NCBI GenBank assembly: GCA_050273025.1
Contig: CP158635.1
Coordinates: forward strand, 10,664,001-10,728,000
DNA from: Cenococcum geophilum
Taxonomy: Eukaryota
Reading direction: 5' to 3'
Length of the DNA: 64,000 nt
Positions 1 to 54,023 of this stretch are shown piece by piece. Both the position numbers and the translations under genes were made by a program. The notes beneath the pieces were generated by a model. That model ran no database searches, had not been told where the DNA came from, and saw nothing but the letters and a program-made list of their open reading frames with translations. Numbering within the stretch: position 1 is the first letter of the stretch; every line of letters starts with the position of its first letter.

Positions 1-229
1 CTAATACTCCTATACCTTTCCTATAGCATTTCTTAGGTTCTATAATAACTTCTAGGTAGTCTCGTTATAACCTATCCACTTTACTTTATACTATATTTTA
101 TTATTAATGTCCTTATAGTTAATAATCTTTAAAACTTACTATTTATCTTCTTTTTATCCTCTATATATATCTGCCTTATAGACTAATAGCTCTATATCTC
201 CGTATACTAGTTCTAGCATTATAATATAC

Positions 230-5939: not shown

Positions 5940-6103
5940 TGTCGGTATAATATTCGTTTTACGTGTCACGTGCTCTATGCACGTAACCTACGCGAGACGC
6001 GTATATGTATCAACACTGCATTAGAGTAGAACCTTAAGAATCCAACTATATATCGCACTGCACGTATATTACGTCTATTGCATCGTGTTAAAGTATCCCG
6101 ACA
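5940..6103 (+). repeat. Copia-1 3' LTR (164 bp)
   Basis: TG...CA termini; matches 230-380 with 13 extra bp. Confidence 0.95.
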
Positions 6104-9100
6104 TATACTATATAGGGTAGATCTTTATCTTCGCTAGTAAGTTAAGTCTATACGTAACTTCTAAAATCTTAGCTATAATTCTAAATAGTCCTAGTCTAAT
6201 ATAGTTTAACTTCTTACTTAGTTGTTAACTCGTAAAATTTTTATATAATAGCTATATTTTATCCCCCTCCTTAAGATCTAGTCCCTTAGATCTCTTAGCA
6301 TTATAGTACTTTTTTATTTTTTTATACTAATTTTGCTATAAAATAGAGGTCCTTATAAAGATTTATTAGAGTCTCTATTTTCTATTTTGCTATACTACTT
6401 ATTTTTTTACTTATTTTAGTAACAATAATATTCTAAGCCTATATCCGTAATTTGCCTAAAATAGTAACATCTTTATACCTTCCTATGGTGTTATATTATA
6501 TATAAACTATATAATTAGTAATAGCGATATCTAATTATTTTACGCATAATTAATATAATATTTTAGGTACTATTCTAGTATCTAATTTAATCTTTCCGTC
6601 TATCTATCTGTTTACGGGTAATATATAGTAAAAGTTACTATTCTAACTCCTTATTCCGCTAAAAATACTTCCTAAAATACTACTATAAATCTTAGATCTC
6701 TGTCTAATATAATCTTACTTAGTGCTCTATATTTTATAAATACTTCTTTAATATAGATTCTAGTAATATCCTTTGCTAAGATTTCTTCTATATATGCTAT
6801 AAAGTAGCCCTATTTAGTTAAATTATCTACTATTATAAGGATTATATTATACTCTTATCCGGTAATAGGATCTCTTAACTTTAGCAACTTTATAATAAAG
6901 TTCTATAATATTTTCTTCTATAGACGTTCTGGTACTTTAATAGGCTATAGCTTTCTATACGGCTTATACCTTATTAGCTTATTCCTTTAGCAATTTAAAT
7001 ACTCCTTTATAACTTTTCTCGCTAAGCCCTAAATTCTATAAATAATATATTCCTCTTAAAGTCTTAACACTAAGCCTATAGCTCCATTATGTCCCTATAT
7101 TATTCCCCTATGGAAATCTTTAATAAATTCTTTTGCTATTCCCCTTAGGATATACGTATTTGTTTTCTACTTATACTAGTCTATTTCTAAGTCCTTAGAT
7201 TACGCTTCTTAAATCCTCCTTATTTAATCGCTTTCCAATAGCTCGTACTTTTAAGTTGCTATACTCTTAAAATAATTATATCTAATTAATCTATTACTAT
7301 TTTTGCGTAGCATTGCTCCTAATGGCTTTTTATTATTTTATAGTTTAGCTTTTCTACTTAATACGTCTGCTCTTGTATTCTTAGTGCCTTTAATATACTA
7401 AATCTCGAAATAGTATTCTATAAGTATCTCTGCCTATCTAATCTATCTTTAATTAAGTTTTTATTATTATTAGGAACTCCGTTAGGTTCTTATAATCCGT
7501 TTTAACTATAAATAGTTTCTCTATACCTTATAAGAATACTCTCTATTTTTTAAGTACTATAACTATACTTAATAACTCCTTATTATAGATATCGTAGTTT
7601 AACTCTAGTAGTGTTATCTTTTAACTATAGTATGCTACTAGATGCTATATATTTTTGTACTTCTATAGTAAATATACTCTTAGTATAAAGTCTAATGCGT
7701 CCATTTCTATAACCGTTTTTAGTCCTGGTTAATAGATCTTAAGGATTAGTTCCTAGGTAAATAACTTCTTAAGTTTCTTAAATAACTTTTTTTGCTTATT
7801 CCCTTAAACCTATAGTTCCTCTTTCTTTATAAGCCTAGTAAAGGGTTTAATATTCTTTAACTATTATACTATAAACCTTCTATAAGTAGTTATAAAACCC
7901 TAAGAATAACCTTAACTGCGTTACGTTCTTTAGTTCTTACTAACTTACTATAGCTTCTATCTTCTTTAGGTCCATACTAATATAATCTAATTTAATAATC
8001 AATTTAATAAAATCTATCTTTCTTGTAAAGAACTTATATTTCTTAATTACTACTAGCATCTATTCTTCTTATAGTCTCCTTAAGACCTATTTAACATATT
8101 CTCCGTATTCTTCTTTAGTTATTAAGTAGATAATAATATTGTTAAGGTATACCATAATAAACTTATTAAGGTGTTCTCCTAATATACTATTAATTCGCTT
8201 TTAGAATATTACTAGTACGTTTATAAGCCCGAATTGCATAACTAATAGTTTATATAGTCCTTTCTTTAACCTAAAGGCTGCCTTTTATTTATTACCTTCC
8301 TTAATTCTAATCTAATAATACGTCTATCTTAGATATATCTTTATAAAGATTTATATATTACCTATTTAGTTTTAAATTTTGCTAATTAAGGGTAAAGGAT
8401 ATCTATCCTTTTTAGTAATGCTGTTTAACTGCCTATAGTTAATATATAACCTAAGTTTTCCGTTCTTCTTTAGTATAAATAGTACTAGATAACCTACTAA
8501 TAACTATAATAGTCTAATGTATTCCTTCTGTAGGTTTTCCTAAATAAACTCTTTAAGTGCTCTAGACTCTTCTTTAGTTAGTTTATAGATTAGAAAAAAC
8601 TTTAGACTTATTCCTAGTTCTAATTCTATTTTATAGTCCTATGCTATATACTTTAATAGCTTTTTACTTTCTAGGCTTTATGGTTTTTTATTATACTTAT
8701 AGTATTTCTTTAGTATATAGGATAACCCCTTTTCGGTTTCCTTATATATCGCTCTAACTTAGTACTATACTAACTTAGTTACTATACGCCTCTTATATTA
8801 TTAAGTATCTCTAATATTAACCTAACCTATAATTTAATTAATCTTTAGATTATATTCCTGTAACTAAGGCATGCCTAATACTGCCTTACCCCTTCCTAAT
8901 AGTAGGATATTAAAAGATATCTTAATTTATCTCCCTTTAATAGTTATCTAAATAGGTTCTATTTTAAGATTAATAATACCTCCTCTATAGGTTATTGGAT
9001 CTCCTAAAATTGTAATTAATAGATAAGGGTACTCCTTCTATTTATAAGGTAGTCCTATCCGTTTAACTACTACTAGTAAGATATAGTTTCTTATTACTCT

Positions 9101-10394
9101 ACTATCTATTAACGCTTTAAACTATTAATAGTACTAATTAATCTACAAATTTAGGTGTTGTTCTTAAATTTCTTTAAGGGTTTAAGGCTTTACTACTAGC
9201 TCCCTCTAGTTTTATAGGCCTCTACTTTTCCTAACTATTAGCTGCTTAATCCTTATATACTTAGCTTACTTTTTAGCTAATACCTAGTTCGCTTTTTATC
9301 CTTAATATACTATAGATATATATTCTCTAGGCATTTCTACCACTATTATCTGTCTAAGTATTTTTCCGTAAGGAATCTTTCTAATTAAAGTATTAAATTC
9401 TCTAATTTTTATACTTCTACTAGATGCTAGCCGTATATATACTTAATATTTTTATACTATTACTTATCTAGTACCTTAGGCTAATACATTCTTATAGGGT
9501 ACTTTTAATTCTTTTCCTTTAGATTCTTATGCATATTATATATATTATCTATATATATAATCTATACTAATATATAATATACTAGGTGTCTTAGGTTAAT
9601 TCTTAGCTTATCTTTACTTATAAGTGTAAACCTTTATCTAGCTAATCTAAACATTAGTCTATTATTTACTAATACTATAATTTGTTTTTTACCTCTTTAG
9701 TTTTTTAATCTTCCTTTAGATTTCTTAACGTTATAATTAATGCTCCTTTAATATAACTTATGCGTTTCTCCGTAATTACTTAGTCTTAAATAACTTTCTT
9801 ATTAGCTATATATAAAAGTCTTCTCACTTATTATTATGTCGCTACCTATACTATTTTTAGTATAGTTCCGTAAGCGTATATAATCTATCTATAAGAAAAT
9901 ATCTTATTATTACTGCATTATTATAACCTTTAGTGTGCCGTTCTTTAAATCTAGTTAAAACCCCTAGGTCCTCTTCTTGTTCCAGTTCTTTAAGCCACTT
10001 TACTCTTAGCGTGCCTACTCTTAGCCTATTAGTAATCTTTTATATAGGTACTTTAACCCTAAGTCTACCTAATATTCTTAACCCTTAGTAGCCTCTTTAT
10101 TTTTACTACGCTTTAATTTAGTTTTTAAATTCTTTTTAGCCTTCTTTTAGTCTATATCTAGCTATAGGATCCTCTAGATCTATAAACTTTATAATTCTAG
10201 TATTAACTATTTAACTTTAAGGCTAAATACTTTGTTTACCTACTATAGGTACTTTTACTTATTCTTTGCAGTCTTAAGTCCCTAAGAACTCTCTCCCTAT
10301 ACTTATTTTTTTGCCTTTAAATTAAGCTACTACTCTACTCTATCAATTTTTATTTATTATAGGTCCTTAAGCTTATCTTATCTTATACTAAGAA

Positions 10395-10823
10395 TGTAAC
10401 GGAGCCTTGTAGCAAGAACTACGGTAAACTCGTTAATAGGCTAGGTATATAGGTAATGCAGAAAGTTAATAACGTAATAATAACTGGTGGAGTAGTTGCC
10501 TAATAGATTAACTCTAATTATATTCTAAGAATTACTATAAAGAAAGGAACTATCTAGGTAGGGACTAAGGTCCTTTAAATACACAAACTGCGCCTAAGAA
10601 AGTCCTTACTCCGTTTACTCTATTTACTCTATCTACTCTATCTACTCTATTATAGATCCTATAGATTACACAGATTATATAGATTATATTATATAACCTT
10701 AGCTACTATTCCTTATTATATAGTTCTATGGGTTCTATCCTAGACCGTACTTATATTAACTAACTAGCTTCTTCTAACTCCTCTCCTAGTAGTTATAACA
10801 TTGTACTTAAAGCGTCCATAACA
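10395..10823 (-). repeat. Element B 3' LTR (429 bp)
   Basis: TGTAAC...ATAACA, adjacent to the PPT, repeated at 28638-29057. Confidence 0.95.
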
Positions 10824-10931
10824 CCATCTCCCTCCTCTTTATCTTTGTCCTTAAAGATACCTAATATCTCTAGGTTATTTATTAGAGGTATAATATCCGT
10901 CTAATTAATTTAGTTAATATCTTTACTTATT

Positions 10932-11605
10932 ATACCTAAAGCAATTTCTTCTTCTTCTACAGCTCGTTGGTCTCGTACCGTTACTGCAATATTATCTCTT
11001 AGTAAGATTATACTATCTCTATATTCTTGTTATATAAAAGAAGGGTTAGTCTATATTACGCTAGCGAGTCCTTTATCTTAGCAAACCCTCTTTATATTTA
11101 GAGTGTACTAAAGCAAACATTTAATTATCCTATGATGTTTACTTAGTCTCTAATGCTAAGTATACGCGTTCTACTACTCTTAATAGTCTTTAAGTTCCCT
11201 TATTAATTACTACTAGGGTCTTAGGTTTAATCTACTACTATAAAGCTTAATAATAAGCTTTCGGTGGCGCTGGCGGAACTTTATTACTCCTATAATGCTA
11301 AAAAAGAGGCTACTAATACCTAGCAACGCGCTTTTAATTCTTATCTTACTATATCCACTCGGTTAATCCGTCTTAAAAAGGTATATAAGAAGGTGCGTTT
11401 TAAGGAGTAGAAACTTATAAAATAAGGTTTATAGGAACTTAGCGATAAAAGAACAAATTCTCTTCTAATAGAGAAGGAAATAATTTTAAGTAGTTTAGCA
11501 ATCGTTCCTCCTAGGTCCCCCTTAGGTGGTTTATTCTTTAGTAATCCTTTTTTATTAATATTGCCTAACCTTTTCTCTTCTAATACTCCTATATCTTTTC
11601 TATAG
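10932..11605 (+). pseudogene. Antisense accessory gene of element B (Zn2Cys6-like cluster plus helical tail, probable intron), RIP-degraded
   Basis: Reads (M)PKAISSSTARWSRTVTAILSL...LECTKANI; homologous to 46575-47225 in element E; lies between the pol end and the 3' LTR. Confidence 0.65.
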
Positions 11606-13275
11606 CATTTTTTTAAATTTTCTAGTAGCTCCTAGGTAGTCTTATTATAGCCTATCCACTTTACTTTATACTATATTTTATTATTAACGTTTTTATAACT
11701 AATAATCTTTAAAACTTGCCATTTGTCTTCTTTTTATTCTCTATACGTATTTACTTTATAAACTGGTGGCTTAATATTCCTATATGCTGGCTTTAGCATC
11801 GCAATGTACTATATAGGGTAGATCTTTATCTTAGCTAGTAGATTTAACTTAAATATAACTAATAAAATCTTCTATATAATTTTAAAAGGTCCTAGTCTAA
11901 CGTAGTTTAACCTTTTACTTAATTGTTAACTCTTAAAATTTTTGTGTAGTAGCTATACTTTATCTCCCTCTTTAAGATCTAGTCCCTTAGATCTCTTAGC
12001 GTCATAGTACTTTTTTATTCTTTACTGTACCACCTTAGCTATTTCCGTAAGGTTTATATAAAGATTTATTAATATCTCTATTTTTTACTTAGTTATACTA
12101 CTTATCTTCTTTACTTAATATAGCAATAATAATATTCTTGGCTTATATCCGTAATTTGCCTTAAATAGTAATATACCTATTTCTTTTTGGGGTATTACGT
12201 TATATATAAACTATATAACTGGTAATAATGATATCTAATTATTCTGTATATAATTAATATAATATCTTAAATACTACTCCAGTGTTTAATTTAATCTTTC
12301 CGTTTAACTATCTATCTGTAGATAATATATAATAGAAGTTACTACTTAAACTCCTTATTCCGCTAAGAATACCTCCTAGAATACTGCTATAAATCTTAAA
12401 TCTCTATTTAATATAATTTTACTTAGTGCTCTATATCTTATAAACACTTCTTTAATATAGATTCTAGTGATATCTTCCGCTAAGATTTCTTCTATACATG
12501 CTATAAAGTATCCCTACTTTATTAACTTATCTACTATTACTAAGATTACGTTATAATCTTATCCAATAATAGGATCTTTTAATTTTAGCAACTTTATAAT
12601 AAAGTCCTATAATATAACCTTCTATAGTCTCTCTAGTATTTTAATAGGTTATAGCTCTCTATATAGCTTATATCTTATTAGTTTATTCCTTTAATAATCT
12701 AAACATTCCTTTATAACTTATCTTGCTAGTCTCTAAATTCTATTAATAATATACTCCTCTTAAAGTCTTAATACTAAGCCCATAGCTCTATTATATCCTT
12801 AAGTTAGTCCCTTATAAAATAACTTAATAAATTCTTTTATAATGCTTTTTAGTATATATATTACTTCTTAGTTTTTATACTACTCTAAGTTTAGATTCTC
12901 TATTTGTGCGTCTTAGATTTTTTATAACTAATTACTTTCTAGTAACTTATAGGTCTAACTAATTTCTCTAGTTACTGCGATTTTTAGGTAATTATATCTA
13001 ATTAATCCGTCTATATCTTTTTATAGTAAAGCCTCTAATAGCTTTTTATTATTCTGTAGTTTAGCTTTTCTACTTAGAGCATTTACTTATATATTATCTA
13101 TACCCTTAATATACTAAATCTTAAAATAGTATTCTATAAGTATCTCTACCTATCTAACCTATCTCTAATTAAGTTCTTTTATTATTAGGAACCCTGTTAG
13201 GTTTTTATAATCCATCTTAACTATAAATAGTTTCTCTATACCTTATAAAAATGCTCTCTATTTTTAAAGTACTAT

Positions 13276-13541
13276 TGTGGTGGTGTGATTTGGCCCCTGG
13301 ATTTAATATCTAGATTGGGCATAGCTTTGGGAGAGCCTAGGCCTTATATAAGTTATATAGATCGGTCTAAAGCCCTTAGAGTCAACAATAACTCGGATAG
13401 GCACGACTAACCAAGAATACATTCTTTCCTTTCTTCTTACTAACTGCTTTCCTACTGATTAATTACGACCGACCAACCGACCGACAGATAGATAGATAGC
13501 ATTGAGACTTTCCTATCTAAGAGTAATCGTACCCTCCTATA
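13276..13541 (+). repeat. Element D 5' LTR
   Basis: Direct repeat of 23633-23898; contains (ccga)n and (gata)n microsatellites. Confidence 0.95.
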
Positions 13542-33147: not shown

Positions 33148-34149
33148 TCAATGAAGATTTGGTGCTGGAAACTCTCTAGTCAGGTCATTAACGCTAACAT
33201 ATCGGGACAGCCCAATCCAACCCCACCTGAACCAAAGCATTTGGCTCACGTGCCCGTCAGTCATGGCCTTCTGTGCTCGTCTGTACCCGGATCCATTGCT
33301 TAGAAAGATTAATTTTTCTGGATTTGGATCGCTGCGATGAACTCCTGACCTTTTCAACGAGGATAACAAGACGGAGAGAGGAGCATCAAACAGAGATATG
33401 TATTTTCGTACTATGTTTGTTGTAGTGAGAGAGTAAATCGATACCGCGGCTCCAGAAGGGTCGACCTTGCGTACCCAGTGAAGCGCGCCGTAGTACAGCG
33501 AGATGTGGTTGGCATGCGAAGATATTCCTTGGTTGTCGAACGTAATGAGAACGTCGATGTCAATGTCGGAGGAACTAAGGGTTTGGCTCCCGGAAACTTT
33601 CTGCTTATTCTTCACGGAATAAGAAACAAAATTTTGGGATAATACATTGGCGATGTCATCGGCAGCCCAGGTTGTAGTCATGGCGTCTGGGAAATGGTCT
33701 GTGTCCTCAATAACGTCAACATCATTTGGAGAGCGAAGACCCAAGATGGCAGCAGATTTAATCAGTTCACTTTTTCGCGTTTCGCGGAGACTCTCGTCTT
33801 CGCCTGCTCTGCGTCAGATGTCGTGATCTAGCTAAAAAACCACGCGGCATTCCGAGTACTCATTTGACGTACCGCTGCATAAGCATAGTATCTTGACGTG
33901 ATTCCTCAGTGAGGGTTGGGTTAAAGCTAACACTGTAGGCGAGAAAAACATTGCTTCATCATCCGGATGTGCGATCAAGAGAACTATGCGCTTGTCGTGA
34001 AGAGTTGGGAAGTAAGCGCGAACGAAATAGGCCAAGCTGAACCATCCTGCAAAGAAGGAGAGTGGAAGAACGAAGAAGAAGAAGAAGCCCATTGCTATAG
34101 GTAGTGCGTGGTTGCTGTTAGTGTTGCGAGCCCGCTGCAGCTCGGTCAT
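33148..34149 (-). CDS. GPI12: N-acetylglucosaminyl-phosphatidylinositol de-N-acetylase (GPI12/PIG-L). Exons 34149-33873 and 33803-33148 (310 aa; 291 aa if the start is ATG 34092)
   Basis: N-terminal TM segment; IAHPDDEAMFFSPT; ITFDNQGISSHANH; HVSQMLWFRWGWIGLSRY. A 69-nt GT..CTGAC..CAG intron (33872-33804) joins the two ORF-track ORFs in frame. Confidence 0.93.
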
Positions 34150-34761
34150 TATATACAGACCTGGGGTGCTGCTGTATTGTGAGGTGGGAATGGGTGGCGC
34201 GGCTTGGGGTGGGGTCCGCACAAGGCTGAAAACCGCTAACCTCCGTTGGGGGGGTTCCGAGCGGTTACTGAGAGCCAACCGTCGCCATCCATCACATCCC
34301 CCTTTGATCTATCCTGCAATCTCTCACACGAGCGCCGCTCGGCGCGTCGCTTTGTCACCAAATGCAGCCATGGCTTTCCACAGAATCGTTCCATCATTCG
34401 CTGAAGATAACCACCACCTAAATCTTAAAACAGCAGTGCCTTTCAGACCTTGCACAAAGTTGCCCTGTTTGTATGGAGGGAATGCGTGTTTCTATATACA
34501 GTATGCATGCCTTCCTTCTCTAGCTTTTCGTGTCCCGGCTTTGGCAGCCTCTTTACCTGATACTTTCACAATATAGCCCCTGCTGTCAATTTAGTGTTTC
34601 TGTTGGAGGTGGGGTGGAGCAATGGCTGTTCGAGATATTTCATCGCTCCTTCGCTATATGCTGCATACCTCGCATTATAATTATGCGTATATTTTGTGTC
34701 TGCCTCTATTTCTCTCTTTGATCTAGTTCTCATACCATTCTCTGCTGTTTGAAGACTCTTA
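34150..34761. promoter_or_regulatory. Divergent intergenic region, probable shared promoter
   Basis: ~610 bp between head-to-head start codons; pyrimidine-rich tracts upstream of 34762. No specific sites identified. Confidence 0.4.
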
Positions 34762-35964
34762 ATGCATTTGCAGCCAAACACAACCTTGGACGGATGGCAG
34801 AATGGAGGTACGGACCGTTCATCGTGGAACATCCTCTGGAGTTGCCTTGCCACAATAATATCCTGTACTTGGACGGTTCTTCACCTCAACGTTCCGCGTC
34901 GCGGCTCAACCGAGAATGAGAATATCTTACGCAAACTGCGCTGGCTAGTTCTAACTGCGCTGGCACCAGAGTTGATTACATCTTACGCATTCGGGGAATA
35001 TCTACAAGCTCGGCGCTTGCTATCTGAGCTCAAAGAAGTTGGCGTCGCAGAGCAGGAGTGGAACCTATCCCATGCCTTCTACTTGAGCATGGGATCACTG
35101 AACCTCCGAACGGCAGACGGATACGAGTTTCCCCTCTGCAAACGCGAGAAAACCGAAGGTGGATGGGAAGTGCCATCTTGCAACTCCGATATCGTAGTTC
35201 TTCGAGCCAGCAAGGTGCTGCCAACATCATATCCGATCATTACGAAGGAAGAGATTCAAGACCGCAGCAAGGCCGACCCATTCACCAAGGCCTTCACACT
35301 TATACAAAGCACCTGGTTCGTTGTCAACGCCGTTGCACGCAGCATTACAGGTTTGCCTATTTGCCCTTTAGAGATTAGCTGCATAGCATATGTGTTCTGC
35401 ACATGCGTCACATATGGTTTCTGGTGGAAGAAACCCAAAGATATTTTAACAACTCTCGTTGTTCCTTGCCATTTCAACATAACTGGACTGCCAACGGACA
35501 TCCAACAGTCTATTAGAAGCTTTGATCCGGTAAATCGGGTACAATGCCATCAAGCCTGGAGCCGGCTGGACCTTCCGGACACGGAAAAAGATGTCATCAA
35601 TGTCATTCGCGGCCGTATGCCCGCATTGATGGGCCTGATAATCGGTGTCACGTTTTGCTCTATACACATCGCGGCTTGGAACTTTGAGTTTCCCAGTAGA
35701 GCTGAGGCAATCTTATGGCGGCTTTCAAGTGTTGGTGCCGCCGGGATTCCGATACTTTCCTTAAGCATCGTTTTCATTCGGGGTCTTTCACCTGCTACTT
35801 TTGACAGCCTTTGGGCTTATGTGCTCACGTTGTATTGTATGTTTATCATCTTATATGCAAGTGCGAGGCTCGCCGTGATCGCATTGCTTTTCTCTACTTT
35901 AAGGAATTTACCGGTTGGATCTTTCGTTACTATTAATTGGGCGAGGCAAGTACCACATATGTAG
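34762..35964 (+). CDS. Uncharacterised fungal multi-pass membrane protein (400 aa, single exon)
   Basis: Intact ORF with several hydrophobic helices and motifs of a widespread fungal family of unknown function: ILWSCLATIISCTWTVLHLNVP, APEL, HAFYLSMG, IQDRSKADPF, WWKKPKD, HIAAWNFEFPS, YASARL, W..QVPH. Confidence 0.9.
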   Translation: MHLQPNTTLDGWQNGGTDRSSWNILWSCLATIISCTWTVLHLNVPRRGSTENENILRKLRWLVLTALAPELITSYAFGEYLQARRLLSELKEVGVAEQEWNLSHAFYLSMGSLNLRTADGYEFPLCKREKTEGGWEVPSCNSDIVVLRASKVLPTSYPIITKEEIQDRSKADPFTKAFTLIQSTWFVVNAVARSITGLPICPLEISCIAYVFCTCVTYGFWWKKPKDILTTLVVPCHFNITGLPTDIQQSIRSFDPVNRVQCHQAWSRLDLPDTEKDVINVIRGRMPALMGLIIGVTFCSIHIAAWNFEFPSRAEAILWRLSSVGAAGIPILSLSIVFIRGLSPATFDSLWAYVLTLYCMFIILYASARLAVIALLFSTLRNLPVGSFVTINWARQVPHM

Positions 35965-46045: not shown

Positions 46046-46466
46046 TGTAACGGAGCCTTGTAGTAGGAACTACGGTAGACTTGTTAATAGGCTAGGTATA
46101 TAGGTATTGCAAGTAAGTTAACAACGTAATAATAACTAGTGGAGTAGTTGCCTAACAGATTAACTCTAATTATATTCTGAGAATTACTACAAGGAAGGAA
46201 CTATCTAGGTAGGGACTAAGGGTCCTTAAATATACAACTGTACTCCTATAAAATCCTTCTTATACGTAATATACGTGTTATATATAAGGTATATAAGTTC
46301 CCTTCGTTCCTCGCGTTCCTTACGTAGCACCTTATATAACCTTAGCTACTATTCCTCGTTATATAGTTCTATGGGTTTTATCCTAGACCGTGCTTATATT
46401 AACTAACTAGCTTCTTCTAACTCTTCTCTAAGTAGTTATAATATTGTACTTAAAGCGTCTGTAACA
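46046..46466 (-). repeat. Element E 3' LTR
   Basis: TGTAAC...GTAACA; repeat of 53603-54023. Confidence 0.95.
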
Positions 46467-46574
46467 CCATCTCCCTCCTCTTTATCTTCGTCCTTAAAGA
46501 TACCTAATATCTCTAAGTCGTTTACTAGAGGTGTAATATCTATTTAATTAATTTAGTTAATATTATTGCTTATA

Positions 46575-47225
46575 ATACCTAAAGCTTCTTCTTCTTTATA
46601 CGCGCAACGTCGTGCTCGCACTATTACTGTAATATTGTCGCTTAGTGAAATAATACTATCTTTGTGTTCTCGTTGCTTAAAAGAGGGGCTAGTATATATT
46701 ACGTTAGCGAGTCCTTTATCTCGGCAACCCTCCTTTTATTTAGAGTACACTAAAGCAAACATTTAATTGTCTTATGATATTCGCTCTACTTCTAACGCTA
46801 AATATACGCGTTTTATAACTCTTAATAGTCTCTAAGTTTCCTAAGTAATTTATTATAGGGTCTTATATTTAATTTGCTGCTATAAGGCTTAATAGTAACC
46901 TAGCGTAGGCCCTTACTAAACTTAAGCGTTCTTAGGATGCGGAATAGAAAGCTCTAGATACTCGCATTACGGCGTCTACCTATCTACTTTATCTTAAGAA
47001 AGTGTATAAGAAGGTTTATTTAAAGGAGTGTAAACTTATAAAATAAGGTCTATAGGAACTTAGTAATAAAAGAATAGGTTCTCTTCCAGTAGAGAAGGAA
47101 ATAACTCTAAGTAGTTTAGCAGTCGCTCTTTCTAGGTCCCCTTTAGGTAACTTATTCTTTAGCGATTCCTCTTTATTAATATTGCCTAACCTTTTCTCTT
47201 TTAATACTCCTGTACCTTTCCTATA
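46575..47225 (+). pseudogene. Antisense accessory gene of element E (Zn2Cys6-like cluster plus helical tail)
   Basis: ORF 46566-46766 and its continuation read CSRCLKEGLV(C)ITLASPLSRQPSF(C)LE(C)TKANI*LS(C); homologous to 10932-11605. Confidence 0.68.
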
Positions 47226-50200
47226 GCGTTCTTTAGGTTTTCTAGTAGTTCCTAGGTAGTCTCGTTATAGCATATCTACTTTACTTTATACTATATTTTA
47301 TTATCTATATCCTTATAACTAATAATCTTTAAAACTTACTATTTGTCTTCCTCTTATCCTCTATACGTATCTGCCTTATAGACTAGTGGCTTAACATTTC
47401 CGTATACTAGCTCTAGCATTATAATATACTATATAGGGTAGATCTTTATCCTAGCTAGTAGGTTTAACTTAAATATAACTAATAAAATTTTCTGTATAAT
47501 TTTGAAAGGTCCTAGTCTAACGTAGTCCAACTTCTTACTTAGTCGTTAACTTTTAAAAATTTTGTATAGTAGCCATACTTTATTTCCCTCCTTAAGATCT
47601 GGTCCCTTAGATCTCTTAGCATTATAGTATTTTTTTATTCTTTACTATACTACTTTAGCTATTTCCGTAAGGTCTGCATAAAGATTTATTAAACTCTTTA
47701 TTCTTTACTTAGCTATACTACTTATCTTTTTTACTTAACGTGGCGATAGTAAGGTCCTTAGCTTATATCCGTAATTTGCTTTAAATAGTAACGTACCTAT
47801 TTCTTCTTATGGTGTTATATTATATGCAAACTATATAACTAGTAATAGCAATACCTAATTATTTTATACATAATTAATATAATGCCTTAGATACTGTTCT
47901 AGTGTCTAATTTAATCTTTCTATTTAACTATCTGTCTATAGATAATATACGGTAGAAGTTACTACTTAAACTTCTTACTCTGCTAAGAATACTTCCTAAA
48001 ATACTACTATGAATCTTAGATCTCTATTTAATATAATCTTACTTAATGCTCTATATCTTATAAACACTTCTTTAATATAGATTCTAGCGATATCTTCCGC
48101 TAATATTTCTTCTAAACATGCTATAAAGTATCCCCACTTTGTAAGCTTATCTATTATTATTAAGATCGCGTTATAATCTTATCTGGTAATAGGATCTTTT
48201 AACTTTAATAACTTAATAATAAAGTCCTATAATATAACTTCCCATAGTCTCTCTAGTATTTTAATAGGTTGTAGCTCTCCATATAGCTTATACCTCGTTA
48301 GTTTATTCCTTTAGCAATTTAAATATTCTTTTATAACTTACCTAGCTAGTCCCTAGATTCTATTAATAATGTACTCTTTTTAAAGTCTTAACACTAAGCC
48401 TATAGCTCCGTTGTGTCCTTAAGTTAGTCCTTTATAAAATAACTTAATAAACTCTTTTGCAATAGATCTTAGTACGTATATTACTTCTCGATTTTTATAC
48501 TACTCTAAGTTTAGATCCTCTACCTATACGTTTTAGATCTTTTATATTTAATTACTCTTTAGTAATTTATAGATCTTTTCCTCTTATATTACTATAATCT
48601 TTAGATAATTGTATCTAATTAGTCTATCTATGTCTTTCCGCAACAAAGCCCCTAACGGCTTTTTATTATTTTATAGTTTAGCCTTTCTACTTAGAGCGTC
48701 TGCTCGTATATTTTCTATACCCTTAGTATACTAAATCTTGAAATAGTATTCCGTAAGTATCTCCGCCTATCTAACTTGTCTGCGATTAAGTTCTTTTATT
48801 ATTAGGAACCCCGTTAGGTTCTTATAGTCCGTCTTAACTATAAATAGTTTTTCTATACCTTATAAGAATAATCTCTATTCCCTTAGTGCTATAACTATAC
48901 CTAATAACTCCTTATTATAGATGTTATAGTTTAGTTCTAGTAGTATTATCTTTTAACTATAGTATGCTACTAGGTGCCATTTATCTTAATATTTCTATAG
49001 AAAGTACGCTCCTAGTATATAGTCTAATGCATCCGTTTCAACCACTGTCTTTAACTATAGTTAATAGATTTTAAGAACTGGCTCCTAGGTGAATAACTAT
49101 TTGATCTTCTTAAATAGTTCCTTTTACTTCTCTCCCTATGCCTATAGTTCTTCCTTCTTCGTTAATCTTATAAGTGGCTTAATATCCTTTAACCATTAAG
49201 CTATAAACCTTCTGCAGTAATTACAGAACCCTAAAAATAACCTTAGCTATATTATATTTTCTAGTTCTTGCCAATTTACTATAGCCTCAATCTTTTTTAG
49301 ATCTATGCTAAGTTAGCCTAGTTTAATAATAAATTTAACAAAATCTATCTTCCTAGTAAAGAATTTATATTTCTTAATTGCTACTGGCATCTATTCTTCT
49401 TATAGTCTCTTTAAGACCTATTTAACGTGTTCTCCATATTCTTCCTTACTTATTAAGTAGATAATAATATTATTAAGGTATACTATAACAAATTCATCTA
49501 AGTGCTCTCTTAATACATTATTAATTCGTTTCTAAAACGTTACTAGTACGTTTATAAGCCCGAATTGCATAACTAATGGTTTATATAGTCCTTCCTTTAA
49601 CCTAAAGGCTGCCTTCTATTCGTTGCCTTCCTTAATTCTAATCTAATAGTACGCCCATCTTAGATCTATCTTTGTAAAGATTTACGCATTACCAATCCTA
49701 TCTTAGATTTCGCTAATTAAGGGTAAAGGATACCTATCCTTTCTAGTAATACTGTTTAACTATTTATAGTTAATATATAGCCTAAGTTTTCTATTTTTCT
49801 TTAGTACGAATAGTACTGGATATCCTACTAATAACTATAATGGTCTAATGTATCCCTTTCAAAGATTTTCCTGGATAAACTCCTTAAGTGCTTATAACTC
49901 TTTTTCTGTTAACTTATAAGTTGGGTAAAACCTTAGACTTATTCCTAGTTCTAGCTCTATCTTATAGTCCTATACTGTATACTCTAACAGCTTTTTACTT
50001 TTTAGTAACCATAGCTTCTTGCTATACTTATAGTATCTTTTTGGTACATAGCTTAATCCTTAATTGGTTTCTTTATATATTACTCCAACTTAATACTATA
50101 CTAACTTAGTTTATTGTCGCATCTTACGTTATTATATATCTCTAATATTAACCTAACCTATAACCCAATTAATCTTTAGATTATATTCCTATAACTAAGG

Positions 50201-53602: not shown

Positions 53603-54023
53603 TATAACGGAGCCTTATAGTAGGAACTACGGTGGACTTATTAATAGGCTAGGTATATAGGTATTACAAGTAAGTTAACAACGTAATAATAACTAGTGGA
53701 GTGGTTGCCTAATAGATTAACTCTAATTATATTCTAAGAATCACTACAAGGAAGGAACTATCTAGGTAGGGACTAAGGGTCCTTAAATACACAACTATAC
53801 TCCTATAAAATCCTTCTTGTACGTAATGTACGTGTTATATATAAGGTACGTAAGTTCCCTTCGTTCCTCGCGTTCCTTACGTAGCACCTTATATGACCTT
53901 GGCTACCATTCCTCGTTATATGGTTCCACGGGTTCCATCCTAGACCGTGCTTATATTAACCAACTAGCTTCTTCCGACTCTTCTCTAAGTAGTCGTAACA
54001 TCGTACTTAAAGCGTCCGTAACA
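53603..54023 (-). repeat. Element E 5' LTR
   Basis: Repeat of 46046-46466; less mutated in U3. Confidence 0.95.

What the first reader, a model, noticed from the sequence alone, without database searches (positions are those of the whole stretch)
10932..11605. Chromovirus family encodes an antisense Zn2Cys6-like protein between pol and the 3' LTR
Seen: copies B and E (46575-47225) both have an opposite-strand frame with spacing C-x2-C-x6-C-x13-C-x2-C-x8-C. Cys1-2 are intact in E and Cys5 is intact in B (TGT 11104); the other three are TAT codons, the RIP product of TGT. An intron-like segment and a helical tail follow, meeting the pol end tail-to-tail. Known: this spacing fits the fungal Zn(II)2Cys6 binuclear cluster. 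Inference: an element-encoded DNA-binding regulator expressed from an antisense promoter in the 3' LTR; antisense orientation would let the intron survive retrotransposition.
Basis: partly seen in the sequence, partly recalled or inferred. Interest (0 to 1): 0.72.

Follow-up and report, generated by a model that had tools for sequence, protein, structure and literature searches.

The report
Antisense cysteine-rich gene in fungal retrotransposon
Two mutation-riddled copies of a fungal retrotransposon carry, on the strand opposite their polymerase gene, the wreck of a small spliced gene for a six-cysteine, helix-tailed protein that intact relatives keep under selection; a gene in this position (brtn) is already known from grey-mould fungi.

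Summary
Copies B and E are RIP-degraded Ty3/gypsy chromoviruses on the minus strand. Between the chromodomain end of pol and the polypurine tract/3' LTR, the plus strand holds a two-exon gene: E 46575-46803 and 46859-47226, B 10932-11161 and 11217-11605, with a 55-nt intron. In the window alone the C/Y pattern is not beyond chance. Relatives settle it. 537 related stretches were found in metagenome contigs. Un-RIPped copies carry all six Cys with the spacing C-x2-C-x6-C-x13-C-x2-C-x8-C. Of 82 copies, 79 hold a complete intron with a GT (or RIP AT) start, a CTRAY branch and a YAG end. Six natural protein records show the exact spliced junction. dN/dS between subfamilies is 0.16-0.25 in the antisense frame, against about 0.8 in the pol-continuing sense frame. 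The product is about 205 aa: a six-Cys module, a long helix predicted to form an antiparallel dimer, and a conserved C-terminal motif. Membership of the Zn2Cys6 family is not established: Pfam Zn_clus matches stay below threshold and no confident fold was obtained. An antisense gene in this position, brtn, was described in Boty-like retrotransposons of Botrytis in 2011. So this is most likely a new member of a known kind. Its function is unknown.

The parts
46048..46466 (-). 3' LTR of full-length copy E (its 5' LTR is 53605-54023)
   Evidence: Self-BLAST gives 92.8% identity over 419 nt. The LTR edge reads TGTTAC on the minus strand.
46467..46484 (-). Polypurine tract of copy E; it also forms part of the antisense gene's upstream region
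   Evidence: The minus strand reads a purine run directly before the LTR edge, conserved in B, E and the loci.
46575..46803 (+). Antisense gene exon 1 in copy E. The start is ATA (a RIPped ATG); the six-Cys module lies at 46665-46775.
   Evidence: Homologues start with MP... C or Y stands at all six positions in 122 of 155 fetched proteins.
46804..46858 (+). Intron of 55 nt. Its 5' site is RIPped from GT to AT, and it ends in TAG.
   Evidence: the same segment is exactly absent from the six spliced records.
46859..47226 (+). Antisense gene exon 2 in copy E: helical region, C-terminal ..NTPVPFL, stop TAG at 47224-47226
   Evidence: The matching part of P0091 is predicted as a helix spanning residues 77-151 with pLDDT 95-98.
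47201..47341 (-). End of pol in copy E: the chromodomain and the likely pol stop (47201-47203). It overlaps the antisense ORF by about 26 nt.
   Evidence: Translation. A stop stands at this position in 41 of 45 copies. The coordinates were counted by hand.
10394..10823 (-). 3' LTR of copy B. The element is cut off at about 13275.
10824..10841 (-). Polypurine tract of copy B
10932..11161 (+). Antisense gene exon 1 in copy B. It starts with ATA and has a 1-nt insertion that shifts the frame. Cys5 is intact (TGT 11104).
11162..11216 (+). Intron in copy B, 55 nt
11217..11605 (+). Antisense gene exon 2 in copy B, stop TAG at 11603-11605
11602..11721 (-). Chromodomain at the end of pol in copy B
   Evidence: Pfam Chromo, E 0.033, residues 20-59 of the translation of 10830-11778 on the minus strand.

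Best explanation
This chromovirus family carries a third gene on the strand opposite gag-pol, between the end of pol and the polypurine tract/3' LTR.

Shown:
- The gene has two exons and one phase-1 spliceosomal intron. The intron cannot be removed from the sense genomic RNA, so it is copied with the element.
- The spliced frame encodes about 202-208 residues: a short N-terminal part, a six-cysteine module (C-x2-C-x6-C-x13-C-x2-C-x8-C), a Trp formed across the splice junction, a long amphipathic helix, an acidic Ser/Pro-rich stretch and a conserved C-terminal ..SFSxLPDxxSSDTPxPF.
- The frame has been under purifying selection across subfamilies.
- The window's two copies, B and E, are dead RIP-mutated versions.

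Inferred:
- The cysteines bind zinc (about 0.6).
- The helix forms a homodimer. The model supports an antiparallel pairing.
- The protein acts in the nucleus as a regulator of the element's own expression or replication (about 0.3). It would be made from an antisense transcript that starts in or beyond the 3' LTR, in the manner of retroviral antisense proteins.
- It is most likely the counterpart of brtn of Boty-like retrotransposons. Homology was not tested.
For: Homologues:
- Read with X at its stops, the E frame hits 90 predicted proteins at E<=1e-3 and 16 at E<=1e-10, all within query residues 1-113.
- A metagenome scan confirmed 537 related stretches and kept 80 loci.

Cysteines:
- The un-RIPped copy L013 and the proteins P0091, P0109, P0144 and P0084 have all six Cys.
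- 122 of 155 fetched proteins keep the exact spacing with only C or Y at the six places.
- In laid genomic contigs the Cys5 middle base 46747 is G in the majority: 87368 of 126720 in X1, and 109 of 113 in X16.

Intron (82 copies):
- 46 start with GT and 36 with AT (a RIP-type change).
- 69 end in TAG and 9 in TAA.
- A CTAAC/CTAAT/CTGAT branch lies upstream of the 3' end.
- The length classes are 55, 61, 64 and 115-133 nt.

Splicing:
- 6 of 155 proteins (P0091, P0144, P0146, P0149, P0150, P0152) carry the predicted junction ..DAE-W-SRVQ...
- They map on genomic loci with the intron as the gap.
- P0144 also lacks a second GT-AG segment.

Selection:
- Transversion diversity at codon positions 1/2/3 is .052/.043/.147 in exon 1 and .098/.096/.166 in exon 2. 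None of 20000 permutations reached the observed excess in either exon.
- dN/dS between the three subfamily consensuses is .16-.25 overall.07-.18 in exon 1 and .25-.32 in exon 2. The chromodomain control gives .035-.17.

Structure:
- AF2 predicts a helix over residues 77-151 with pLDDT 95-98.
- Homodimer model: score 0.54, best of 3 controls 0.02. The runs agree in at least 95% of contacts and the partner's pLDDT is at least 87. This mark was reached by 21 of 30 proteins solved as pairs of one chain and by 0 of 23 solved as single chains. For eukaryotes the counts are 17 of 29, of which only 1 of the 7 with no older solved relative, and 0 of 30 single chains.

Precedent:
- brtn is an antisense gene in Boty-like chromoviruses. 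I read only passages in PMC8365987, PMC7264820, PMC4227169 and PMC5987419.
Against: - No RNA evidence comes from this organism (given in full under Tried and rejected).
- I cannot tell whether the six spliced records come from transcripts or from processed DNA copies.
- 76 of the 80 loci come from one metagenome, so many copies may be paralogues within one genome.
- dN/dS was computed on consensuses that I de-RIPped myself, from 77 of the 82 copies; 5 with odd or cut introns were dropped.
- The opposite-strand frame that shares third positions with the antisense frame necessarily shows the same low ratio (.14-.33).
- The sense frame that continues pol has few stops after de-RIP, 4-7 in about 325 codons, and is open for 130 codons in L013.
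- 78 of 79 complete introns have lengths equal to 1 modulo 3. My reading does not explain this.
- The zinc module has no confident fold: pLDDT 48-64 within the whole protein and 46 alone.
- Function and DNA binding rest on inference only.
Confidence: 0.6

Rival explanations
1. The gene is real, but the protein is not a Zn2Cys6-type DNA binder. The six cysteines form another kind of zinc or disulphide module, and the protein acts through protein or RNA contacts. It might, for example, bind Gag, integrase or host factors, or the antisense transcript itself might be the active agent.
For: - Zn_clus never reaches Pfam's cut-off. The best match is 15.8 bits against 21; 7 of 14 Cys-rich members match weakly and 0 of 30 RIPped ones do.
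- DUF3716 matches about as weakly, in 4 of 14 members.
- The basic residues usual after Cys2 are absent, and the loop is 13 residues long (sequences; the usual pattern is recalled, not from a call).
- The modelled dimer is antiparallel. Gal4's coiled coil is parallel (recalled).
- A family profile finds nothing in the PDB at E<=10.
Against: - Zn_clus is still the family that most members hit.
- The best, though non-significant, PDB match is the Zn2Cys6 protein PPR1 (1pyi, E 0.56).
- The nearest ESM Atlas cluster is named 'Zn(2)-C6 fungal-type domain-containing protein' (score 0.90, 200 of 256 features).
- A Cys module followed by a dimerising helix is the layout of Gal4-type factors (recalled).
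Confidence: 0.3
2. The coding strand is the sense strand. Pol, or a further sense ORF, runs on through the spacer, and the antisense frame is only its open shadow.
For: - In L013 the pol frame stays open for 130 codons after the chromodomain, and another sense frame is open for 201 codons through the PPT into the LTR.
- The de-RIPped pol-continuing frame has 4-7 stops, against 8-20 in the other two sense frames.
- Indels in the spacer are multiples of three. Intron lengths are 1 modulo 3 in 78 of 79 copies, and exon-2 indels are 21, 42 and 78 nt.
Against: - Over exon 2 the pol-continuing frame has dN/dS .76-.82, and its third positions carry no excess of transversions (P 0.98).
- With the antisense protein held fixed, shuffling synonymous codons gives about as few sense stops as are observed (P .07-.74).
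- A stop directly after ..KAY is present in 41 of 45 copies. The two readable exceptions are CAG and TGG, each one transition away from TAG.
- The start codon, the splice signals and the six spliced records all belong to the plus strand.
Confidence: 0.05
3. There is no gene. The C/Y spacing is a chance pattern in Tyr-rich RIPped DNA, and the similar 'proteins' are only open frames called on repeated DNA.
For: - The relaxed pattern is expected about 1.5 times per window by chance.
- All hits are unnamed singletons called on short metagenome contigs.
- Most of the variation among them is of RIP type.
Against: - There is codon periodicity in transversions, which RIP does not produce.
- dN/dS is well below 1 in only one plus-strand frame per exon.
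- Six Cys are present in the un-RIPped copies.
- The intron is removed exactly in six records.
- Length changes are confined to the intron or are in frame.
Confidence: 0.02

Closest known systems
brtn, the additional antisense gene of Boty-like (BcGypsy1) retrotransposons of Botrytis cinerea, also reported for Sclerotinia and seen in a Monilinia transcript (Zhao et al. 2011, Virology 417:248)
   Same: The host element is a fungal Ty3/gypsy element with a chromodomain. The extra gene lies in antisense between pol and the 3' LTR (passages in PMC7264820, PMC4227169, PMC8365987 and PMC5987419).
   Different: Sequence homology was not tested, because no BRTN sequence can be reached with these tools. 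The 2011 paper is not held, so I do not know whether it reports the intron, the six Cys or the helix. The host here is another, root- or soil-associated fungus whose copies are RIPped.
Antisense additional ORFs between pol and the 3' LTR of plant Ty3/gypsy elements (aORF-3R: Grande, RIRE2, Retand, PvRetro13)
   Same: Same position and orientation. They are conserved within families and their function is unknown. A regulatory role and antisense or spliced transcripts have been proposed (PMC7264820, passages).
   Different: Those are plant elements, described in PMC11963269 (abstract only) as non-chromovirus Retand-type elements with long internal regions. No sequence relation was shown or tested here.
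HBZ of HTLV-1, an antisense protein of a retrovirus (recalled, not from a call)
   Same: It is encoded on the minus strand, transcribed from the 3' LTR, has spliced forms, and is a small dimerising coiled-coil factor that modulates the sense transcription of its own element.
   Different: HBZ is a bZIP protein without a cysteine module, from an animal retrovirus. This is an analogy of layout only.
Fungal Zn(II)2Cys6 binuclear-cluster transcription factors (Gal4, PPR1; Pfam PF00172)
   Same: Six cysteines in two C-x2-C-x6/8-C triads, followed by a linker and a dimerising helix. Zn_clus is the commonest weak Pfam match, and PPR1 is the best weak PDB match.
   Different: The scores are below Pfam's cut-off. 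The loop is 13 residues, few basic residues follow Cys2, no confident fold was obtained, and the modelled dimer is antiparallel.

Membership tests
Ty3/gypsy chromovirus (LTR retrotransposon with a chromodomain) | LTR pair, PPT, RT, RNase H, integrase and a C-terminal chromodomain on one strand | tested here: met
   RVT_1 4e-12, RT_RNaseH 7e-18, SH3_Tf2-1 and Chromo (E 0.033) on minus frames. LTR pair 92.8% identical. PPT next to the LTR edge.
brtn-type antisense gene of Boty-like retrotransposons | Extra ORF in antisense between pol and the 3' LTR of a fungal chromovirus | tested here: met
   for the window. The same layout is seen in L001 and L013.
brtn-type antisense gene of Boty-like retrotransposons | Sequence similarity to the BRTN protein | not testable with these tools
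   The paper is not held, and the supplements of PMC8365987 contain no brtn sequence. The protein searches returned only unnamed or 'hypothetical' records.
brtn-type antisense gene of Boty-like retrotransposons | Transcribed from the antisense strand | tested here: inconclusive
   Six intron-less records, one of which also lacks a second GT-AG segment and reaches into the LTR. Their origin, RNA or DNA, is unknown. The one RNA run laid was uninformative.
Spliceosomal intron | GT..AG ends, a branch site, variable length, exact removal that restores the frame | tested here: met
   Removing it joins T|GG into a Trp codon, in frame, in all three subfamily consensuses.
Fungal Zn(II)2Cys6 binuclear cluster (Pfam PF00172 Zn_clus) | Match to the family model at or above the curated cut-off (21 bits) | tested here: not met
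   The best match is 15.8 bits, E 0.016 (P0109). 7 of 14 Cys-rich members match below the cut-off. 0 of 30 RIPped hits and 0 of 6 window frames match at E<=10.
Fungal Zn(II)2Cys6 binuclear cluster (Pfam PF00172 Zn_clus) | Six Cys spaced C-x2-C-x6-C-x5-12-C-x2-C-x6-8-C (range recalled from the literature, not from a call) | tested here: inconclusive
   All six Cys are present and five of the spacings fit. The middle loop is 13 residues, one more than the recalled range.
Fungal Zn(II)2Cys6 binuclear cluster (Pfam PF00172 Zn_clus) | Binuclear-cluster fold | tested here: inconclusive
   AF2 pLDDT is 46 for the module alone and 48-64 within the whole protein. Foldseek found 0 matches and the family profile found 0 PDB matches.
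Fungal Zn(II)2Cys6 binuclear cluster (Pfam PF00172 Zn_clus) | Binding of two zinc ions and of DNA | not testable with these tools
   This needs metal analysis and DNA-binding assays.

The most novel reading that the evidence does not exclude
The product is a highly divergent Zn2Cys6-type, dimeric, sequence-specific DNA-binding protein that recognises its own LTR and sets the balance between sense and antisense transcription. It would be a fungal retrotransposon counterpart of retroviral antisense regulators such as HBZ. It would also mean that the signature fungal transcription-factor fold is carried and spread by a mobile element.
Probability: 0.2. Interest if true: 0.75.

Novelty: new member of a known kind. 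Interest (0 to 1): 0.45.

Why it matters
Accessory genes of LTR retrotransposons are rare and mostly uncharacterised. For fungi, my searches of the held library turned up one described case, brtn, and nothing on its function.

This family gives a well-defined gene model: start, intron, stop, and about 26 nt of tail-to-tail overlap with pol. It also gives evidence of long-term purifying selection, natural spliced forms, and a domain layout (Cys6 module plus dimerising helix) that suggests concrete experiments.

If the protein regulates its own element, it would parallel the antisense regulators of retroviruses. It would also show how an intron can persist inside a retroelement by lying on the non-genomic strand.

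For genome annotation there are two points. The roughly 80-105-aa 'hypothetical proteins' called on such elements are unspliced read-throughs of this gene. And RIP turns its Cys codons into Tyr codons.

Tried and rejected
- No whole genome is held for this window.
- Earlier findings of the scan: nothing by place or by sequence.
- Sequencing runs: no RNA holder is listed.
- One RNA run (X21, another organism label) was laid. 50 reads matched, 49 only in part, none at 99% or better. None lay in 46552-46775 and there were no joints, so it says nothing either way. 448 of the difference rows were not shown, so the other Cys positions could not be read from the lay.
- Pfam on the window's own plus frames found nothing at E<=10.
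- The first alignment of 70 hits was too diverse for the locus search. A 10-member alignment worked.
- Structure: the Cys module alone gave pLDDT 46. Foldseek on the whole model gave 0 matches. The family profile against PDB sequences gave 0 matches at E<=10. I did not run a fold search on the low-confidence module.
- I considered a retained-intron protein as the cause of the intron lengths being 1 modulo 3 and rejected it, because the unspliced frame ends at different places in the three subfamilies.
- I considered L001's missing intron as evidence of splicing and rejected it, because its borders are not GT..AG.
- Zhao et al. 2011 is not held, and the supplements of PMC8365987 hold no brtn sequence.
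- Searches for LTR retrotransposon + antisense + Zn2Cys6 found 0 papers. Retrotransposon + antisense + binuclear cluster found 3 papers, of which the 2 listed are Cryptococcus genome papers.
- A wide Pfam scan of 29-46 kb failed because of its size and was replaced by ORFs of the GC island.

Full report
**Setting.** The window is AT-rich, with GC of 0.25-0.39, apart from an island at 32-36 kb. Copies B and E have RIP signatures: TpA/ApT of 1.6-1.9 and (CpA+TpG)/(ApC+GpT) of about 0.4, against 0.84 and 1.23 in the island. The usual thresholds for these indices are recalled, not from a call. B and E differ by 186 transitions and 83 transversions over about 1.3 kb.

RT, RNase H, the integrase SH3 domain and the chromodomain lie on minus frames. 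The three plus frames of 6000-13500 match no Pfam family at E<=0.01. Copy E is full length, with LTRs at 46048-46466 and 53605-54023 that are 92.8% identical. Copy B keeps its 3' LTR (10394-10823) and is cut off near 13275. A purine run abuts each 3' LTR edge. Only B and E hold the roughly 750-nt spacer between the chromodomain and the PPT.

**The observation.**
- The plus-strand frame starts at ATA (10932 / 46575).
- Cys1 and Cys2 are intact in E (TGT 46665, TGC 46674).
- Cys5 is intact in B (TGT 11104).
- The other positions are TAT or TAC.
- The spacing is C-x2-C-x6-C-x13-C-x2-C-x8-C.
- A segment that breaks the frame follows, then a tail that ends at TAG 47224-47226 (E) and 11603-11605 (B), next to the end of pol.

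Taken alone this is weak. Tyr makes up 7.2% of six-frame residues. The relaxed C/Y pattern occurs 5 times in the window and 1.55 +/- 1.2 times in simulated windows. No Pfam family matches the window's own frames at E<=10.

**Relatives.** The E frame, read with X at its stops, found 90 predicted proteins at E<=1e-3, all within query residues 1-113. The ten I looked up are unnamed singletons from metagenome contigs. The hits start with MP.., which makes the window's ATA a mutated ATG, and they show only C or Y at the six places.

A locus search confirmed 537 related stretches and kept 80 loci. Of these, 76 come from one metagenome. In L001 and L013 the chromodomain again lies downstream on the other strand, and the PPT and LTR lie upstream.

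L013 is essentially un-RIPped (GC 0.447, TpA/ApT 0.88) and has all six Cys. So do P0091, P0109, P0144 and P0084. Of 155 fetched proteins, 122 keep the exact spacing. In laid genomic contigs the middle base of Cys5 is G in the majority. The six cysteines are therefore ancestral, and the Tyr codons are TGY-to-TAY RIP products.

**The intron.** An alignment of 82 copies shows a segment of variable length directly after ..AAG T.
- It starts with GT in 46 copies and AT in 36.
- It has CTAAC, CTAAT or CTGAT about 10-15 nt before its end.
- It ends in TAG in 69 copies and TAA in 9.
- Its length is 55 nt in the window's subfamily (6 copies), 61 nt (26), 64 nt (1) or 115-133 nt (46).

Removing it joins T|GG into a Trp codon and keeps one frame through exon 2 in all three subfamily consensuses. 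These give products of 202-208 residues.

Six natural records carry exactly this junction..DAE-W-SRVQSAA... They map on genomic loci with the intron as the gap. P0144 has the whole C-terminal part. It also lacks a second 62-nt GT..AG segment around the MPP start, and it reads on for about 10 codons into the LTR. Two exact GT-AG removals in one record point to an mRNA-derived contig, but I could not check the source.

**Which strand is selected.** RIP makes only transitions, so I measured purine/pyrimidine diversity per alignment column. In the plus frame, positions 1/2/3 give .052/.043/.147 in exon 1 and .098/.096/.166 in exon 2. In each exon, none of 20000 permutations reached the observed excess at position 3. 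The second half of exon 2 alone gives P 0.034.

In exon 2 the third positions of the pol-continuing sense frame fall on antisense position 2, and they show no excess (P 0.98).

dN/dS (NG86) was computed between de-RIPped consensuses of the three subfamilies, with 6, 27 and 44 copies; 5 of the 82 were dropped.

| Frame | dN/dS |
|---|---|
| Spliced antisense frame, whole | .16-.25 |
| Antisense frame, exon 1 | .07-.18 |
| Antisense frame, exon 2 | .25-.32 |
| Pol-continuing sense frame over exon 2 | .76-.82 |
| Other frames | .8-4.5 |
| Chromodomain control, sense frame | .035-.17 |

The opposite-strand frame that shares third positions with the antisense frame necessarily copies its low ratio.

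The sense frame has few stops after de-RIP and is open for 130 codons in L013. However, shuffling synonymous codons of the antisense protein gives about as few sense stops (P .07-.74).

A stop directly after ..ENLENAKDKIKAY is present in 41 of 45 copies. The readable exceptions are CAG (L017) and TGG (L004), each one transition away from TAG. So TAG is the likeliest ancestral pol stop. The two ORFs then overlap tail to tail by about 26 nt in E, at 47201-47226. I counted this by hand.

**The protein.** AF2 on P0091 with 75 aligned sequences gives mean pLDDT 81. It predicts a helix over residues 13-30, a poorly defined Cys region (pLDDT 48-64) and one long helix over residues 77-151 (pLDDT 95-98).

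Two copies of residues 72-152 are modelled as an antiparallel pair.
- The score is 0.54 and the best of 3 controls is 0.02.
- The runs agree in at least 95% of contacts, and the partner's pLDDT is at least 87.
- The mark was reached by 21 of 30 proteins solved as pairs of one chain and by 0 of 23 solved as single chains.
- On eukaryotes it was reached by 17 of 29, but by only 1 of the 7 with no older solved relative, and by 0 of 30 single chains.

The model supports pairing; it does not show it.

**Is it a Zn2Cys6 domain?** Pfam Zn_clus is the family that most Cys-rich members touch (7 of 14), but never at the cut-off. The best match is 15.8 bits against 21. DUF3716 is touched by 4 of 14. None of 30 RIPped hits matched.

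The best PDB sequence match is the Zn2Cys6 protein PPR1, at a non-significant E of 0.56. There, the first triad here aligns with PPR1's second triad. A family profile finds nothing in the PDB. The module alone folds with pLDDT 46. The nearest ESM Atlas cluster for the whole protein is named 'Zn(2)-C6 fungal-type domain-containing protein' (score 0.90, 200 of 256 features). For the module alone the nearest clusters are unnamed Ascomycota proteins of about 103-105 aa. These are leads only.

My reading is that the layout is Zn2Cys6-like, but membership is not shown.

**What is known.** Zhao et al. 2011 (Virology 417:248) described 'the additional antisense gene brtn' in Boty-like retrotransposons of Botrytis cinerea. 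I could not read that paper. I read only passages in papers that cite it.
- PMC7264820 lists Boty among elements with antisense ORFs between pol and the 3' LTR, and says their function is unknown.
- PMC4227169 describes a Boty-like element with a CHROMO domain and 'brtn-106'.
- PMC8365987 notes brtn in BcGypsy1 and says it is missing from the current genome annotation.
- PMC5987419 reports a Monilinia transcript similar to truncated Pol and to BRTN.

In the held library I found nothing that links such a gene to a Zn2Cys6 module.

The arrangement here is therefore a known kind. Its gene model, its record of selection and its domain layout may add to what is known.

**Mechanism.** Shown: a conserved, intron-bearing antisense gene that encodes a Cys6 module and a long helix. 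Inferred: zinc binding (about 0.6), dimerisation (supported by the model) and a regulatory role on the element's own expression (about 0.3). The intron's persistence follows from its orientation: the sense genomic RNA carries it as a reverse complement, which the spliceosome cannot remove. Consistent with this, 79 of 82 genomic copies keep it.

**Unexplained.** 78 of 79 complete introns have lengths equal to 1 modulo 3. Indels in exon 2 are multiples of three. This suggests some frame constraint across the whole spacer that the antisense gene alone does not require.

Noticed in passing
window 11162-11216 and 46804-46858; L001-L080: Intron lengths fall in the classes 55, 61, 64, 115, 121, 124, 127, 130 and 133 nt. 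78 of 79 complete introns are 1 modulo 3; the one exception is 131 nt in L055. Exon-2 indels are 21, 42 and 78 nt. This hints at a frame constraint across the intron that the spliced antisense gene does not explain.
   Followed up: partly
L017:273-334; L013 about 917-963: Protein P0144 lacks a second GT..AG segment of 62 nt (as measured in L017). This segment holds the MPP start codon, and P0144 reads on upstream through the PPT complement for about 10 codons into the LTR. It may be a 5' intron with an alternative start. Only 33 of 82 copies have CAG or TAG at its 3' border, and the window's subfamily has AAG there.
   Followed up: partly
L001:1103-1432: This genomic copy lacks the intron region except for 4 nt. 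The deletion borders are not GT..AG. The antisense frame stays open (P0051, 110 aa), but the sense frame is shifted.
   Followed up: partly
L013:1197-1940 (minus strand): In this un-RIPped copy the usual stop after ..AY is replaced by Arg, and the pol frame runs on for 130 codons. The copy also has frameshifts in integrase and in antisense exon 2.
   Followed up: partly
window 33148-34305 (minus strand) and 34753-35964 (plus strand): The only GC-rich, non-RIPped island holds a two-piece match to PIG-L (GlcNAc-PI de-N-acetylase, E about 1e-6 for each piece) and a 403-codon open frame with no Pfam match.
   Followed up: partly
window 10593-10692 against 46244-46335: The middle of the LTR differs between B and E. 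B carries short CTACTCTAT-like repeats there, which also produce two of the five chance C/Y pattern hits.
   Followed up: no
window 1-137: The window starts inside the chromodomain end of a further copy of the same family. Its antisense gene would lie just left of the window.
   Followed up: no
P0091 residues 79-150: The modelled homodimer is antiparallel, with residue 115 paired to residue 115 and residue 90 to residue 136. The coiled coil of Gal4-type factors is parallel (recalled).
   Followed up: no
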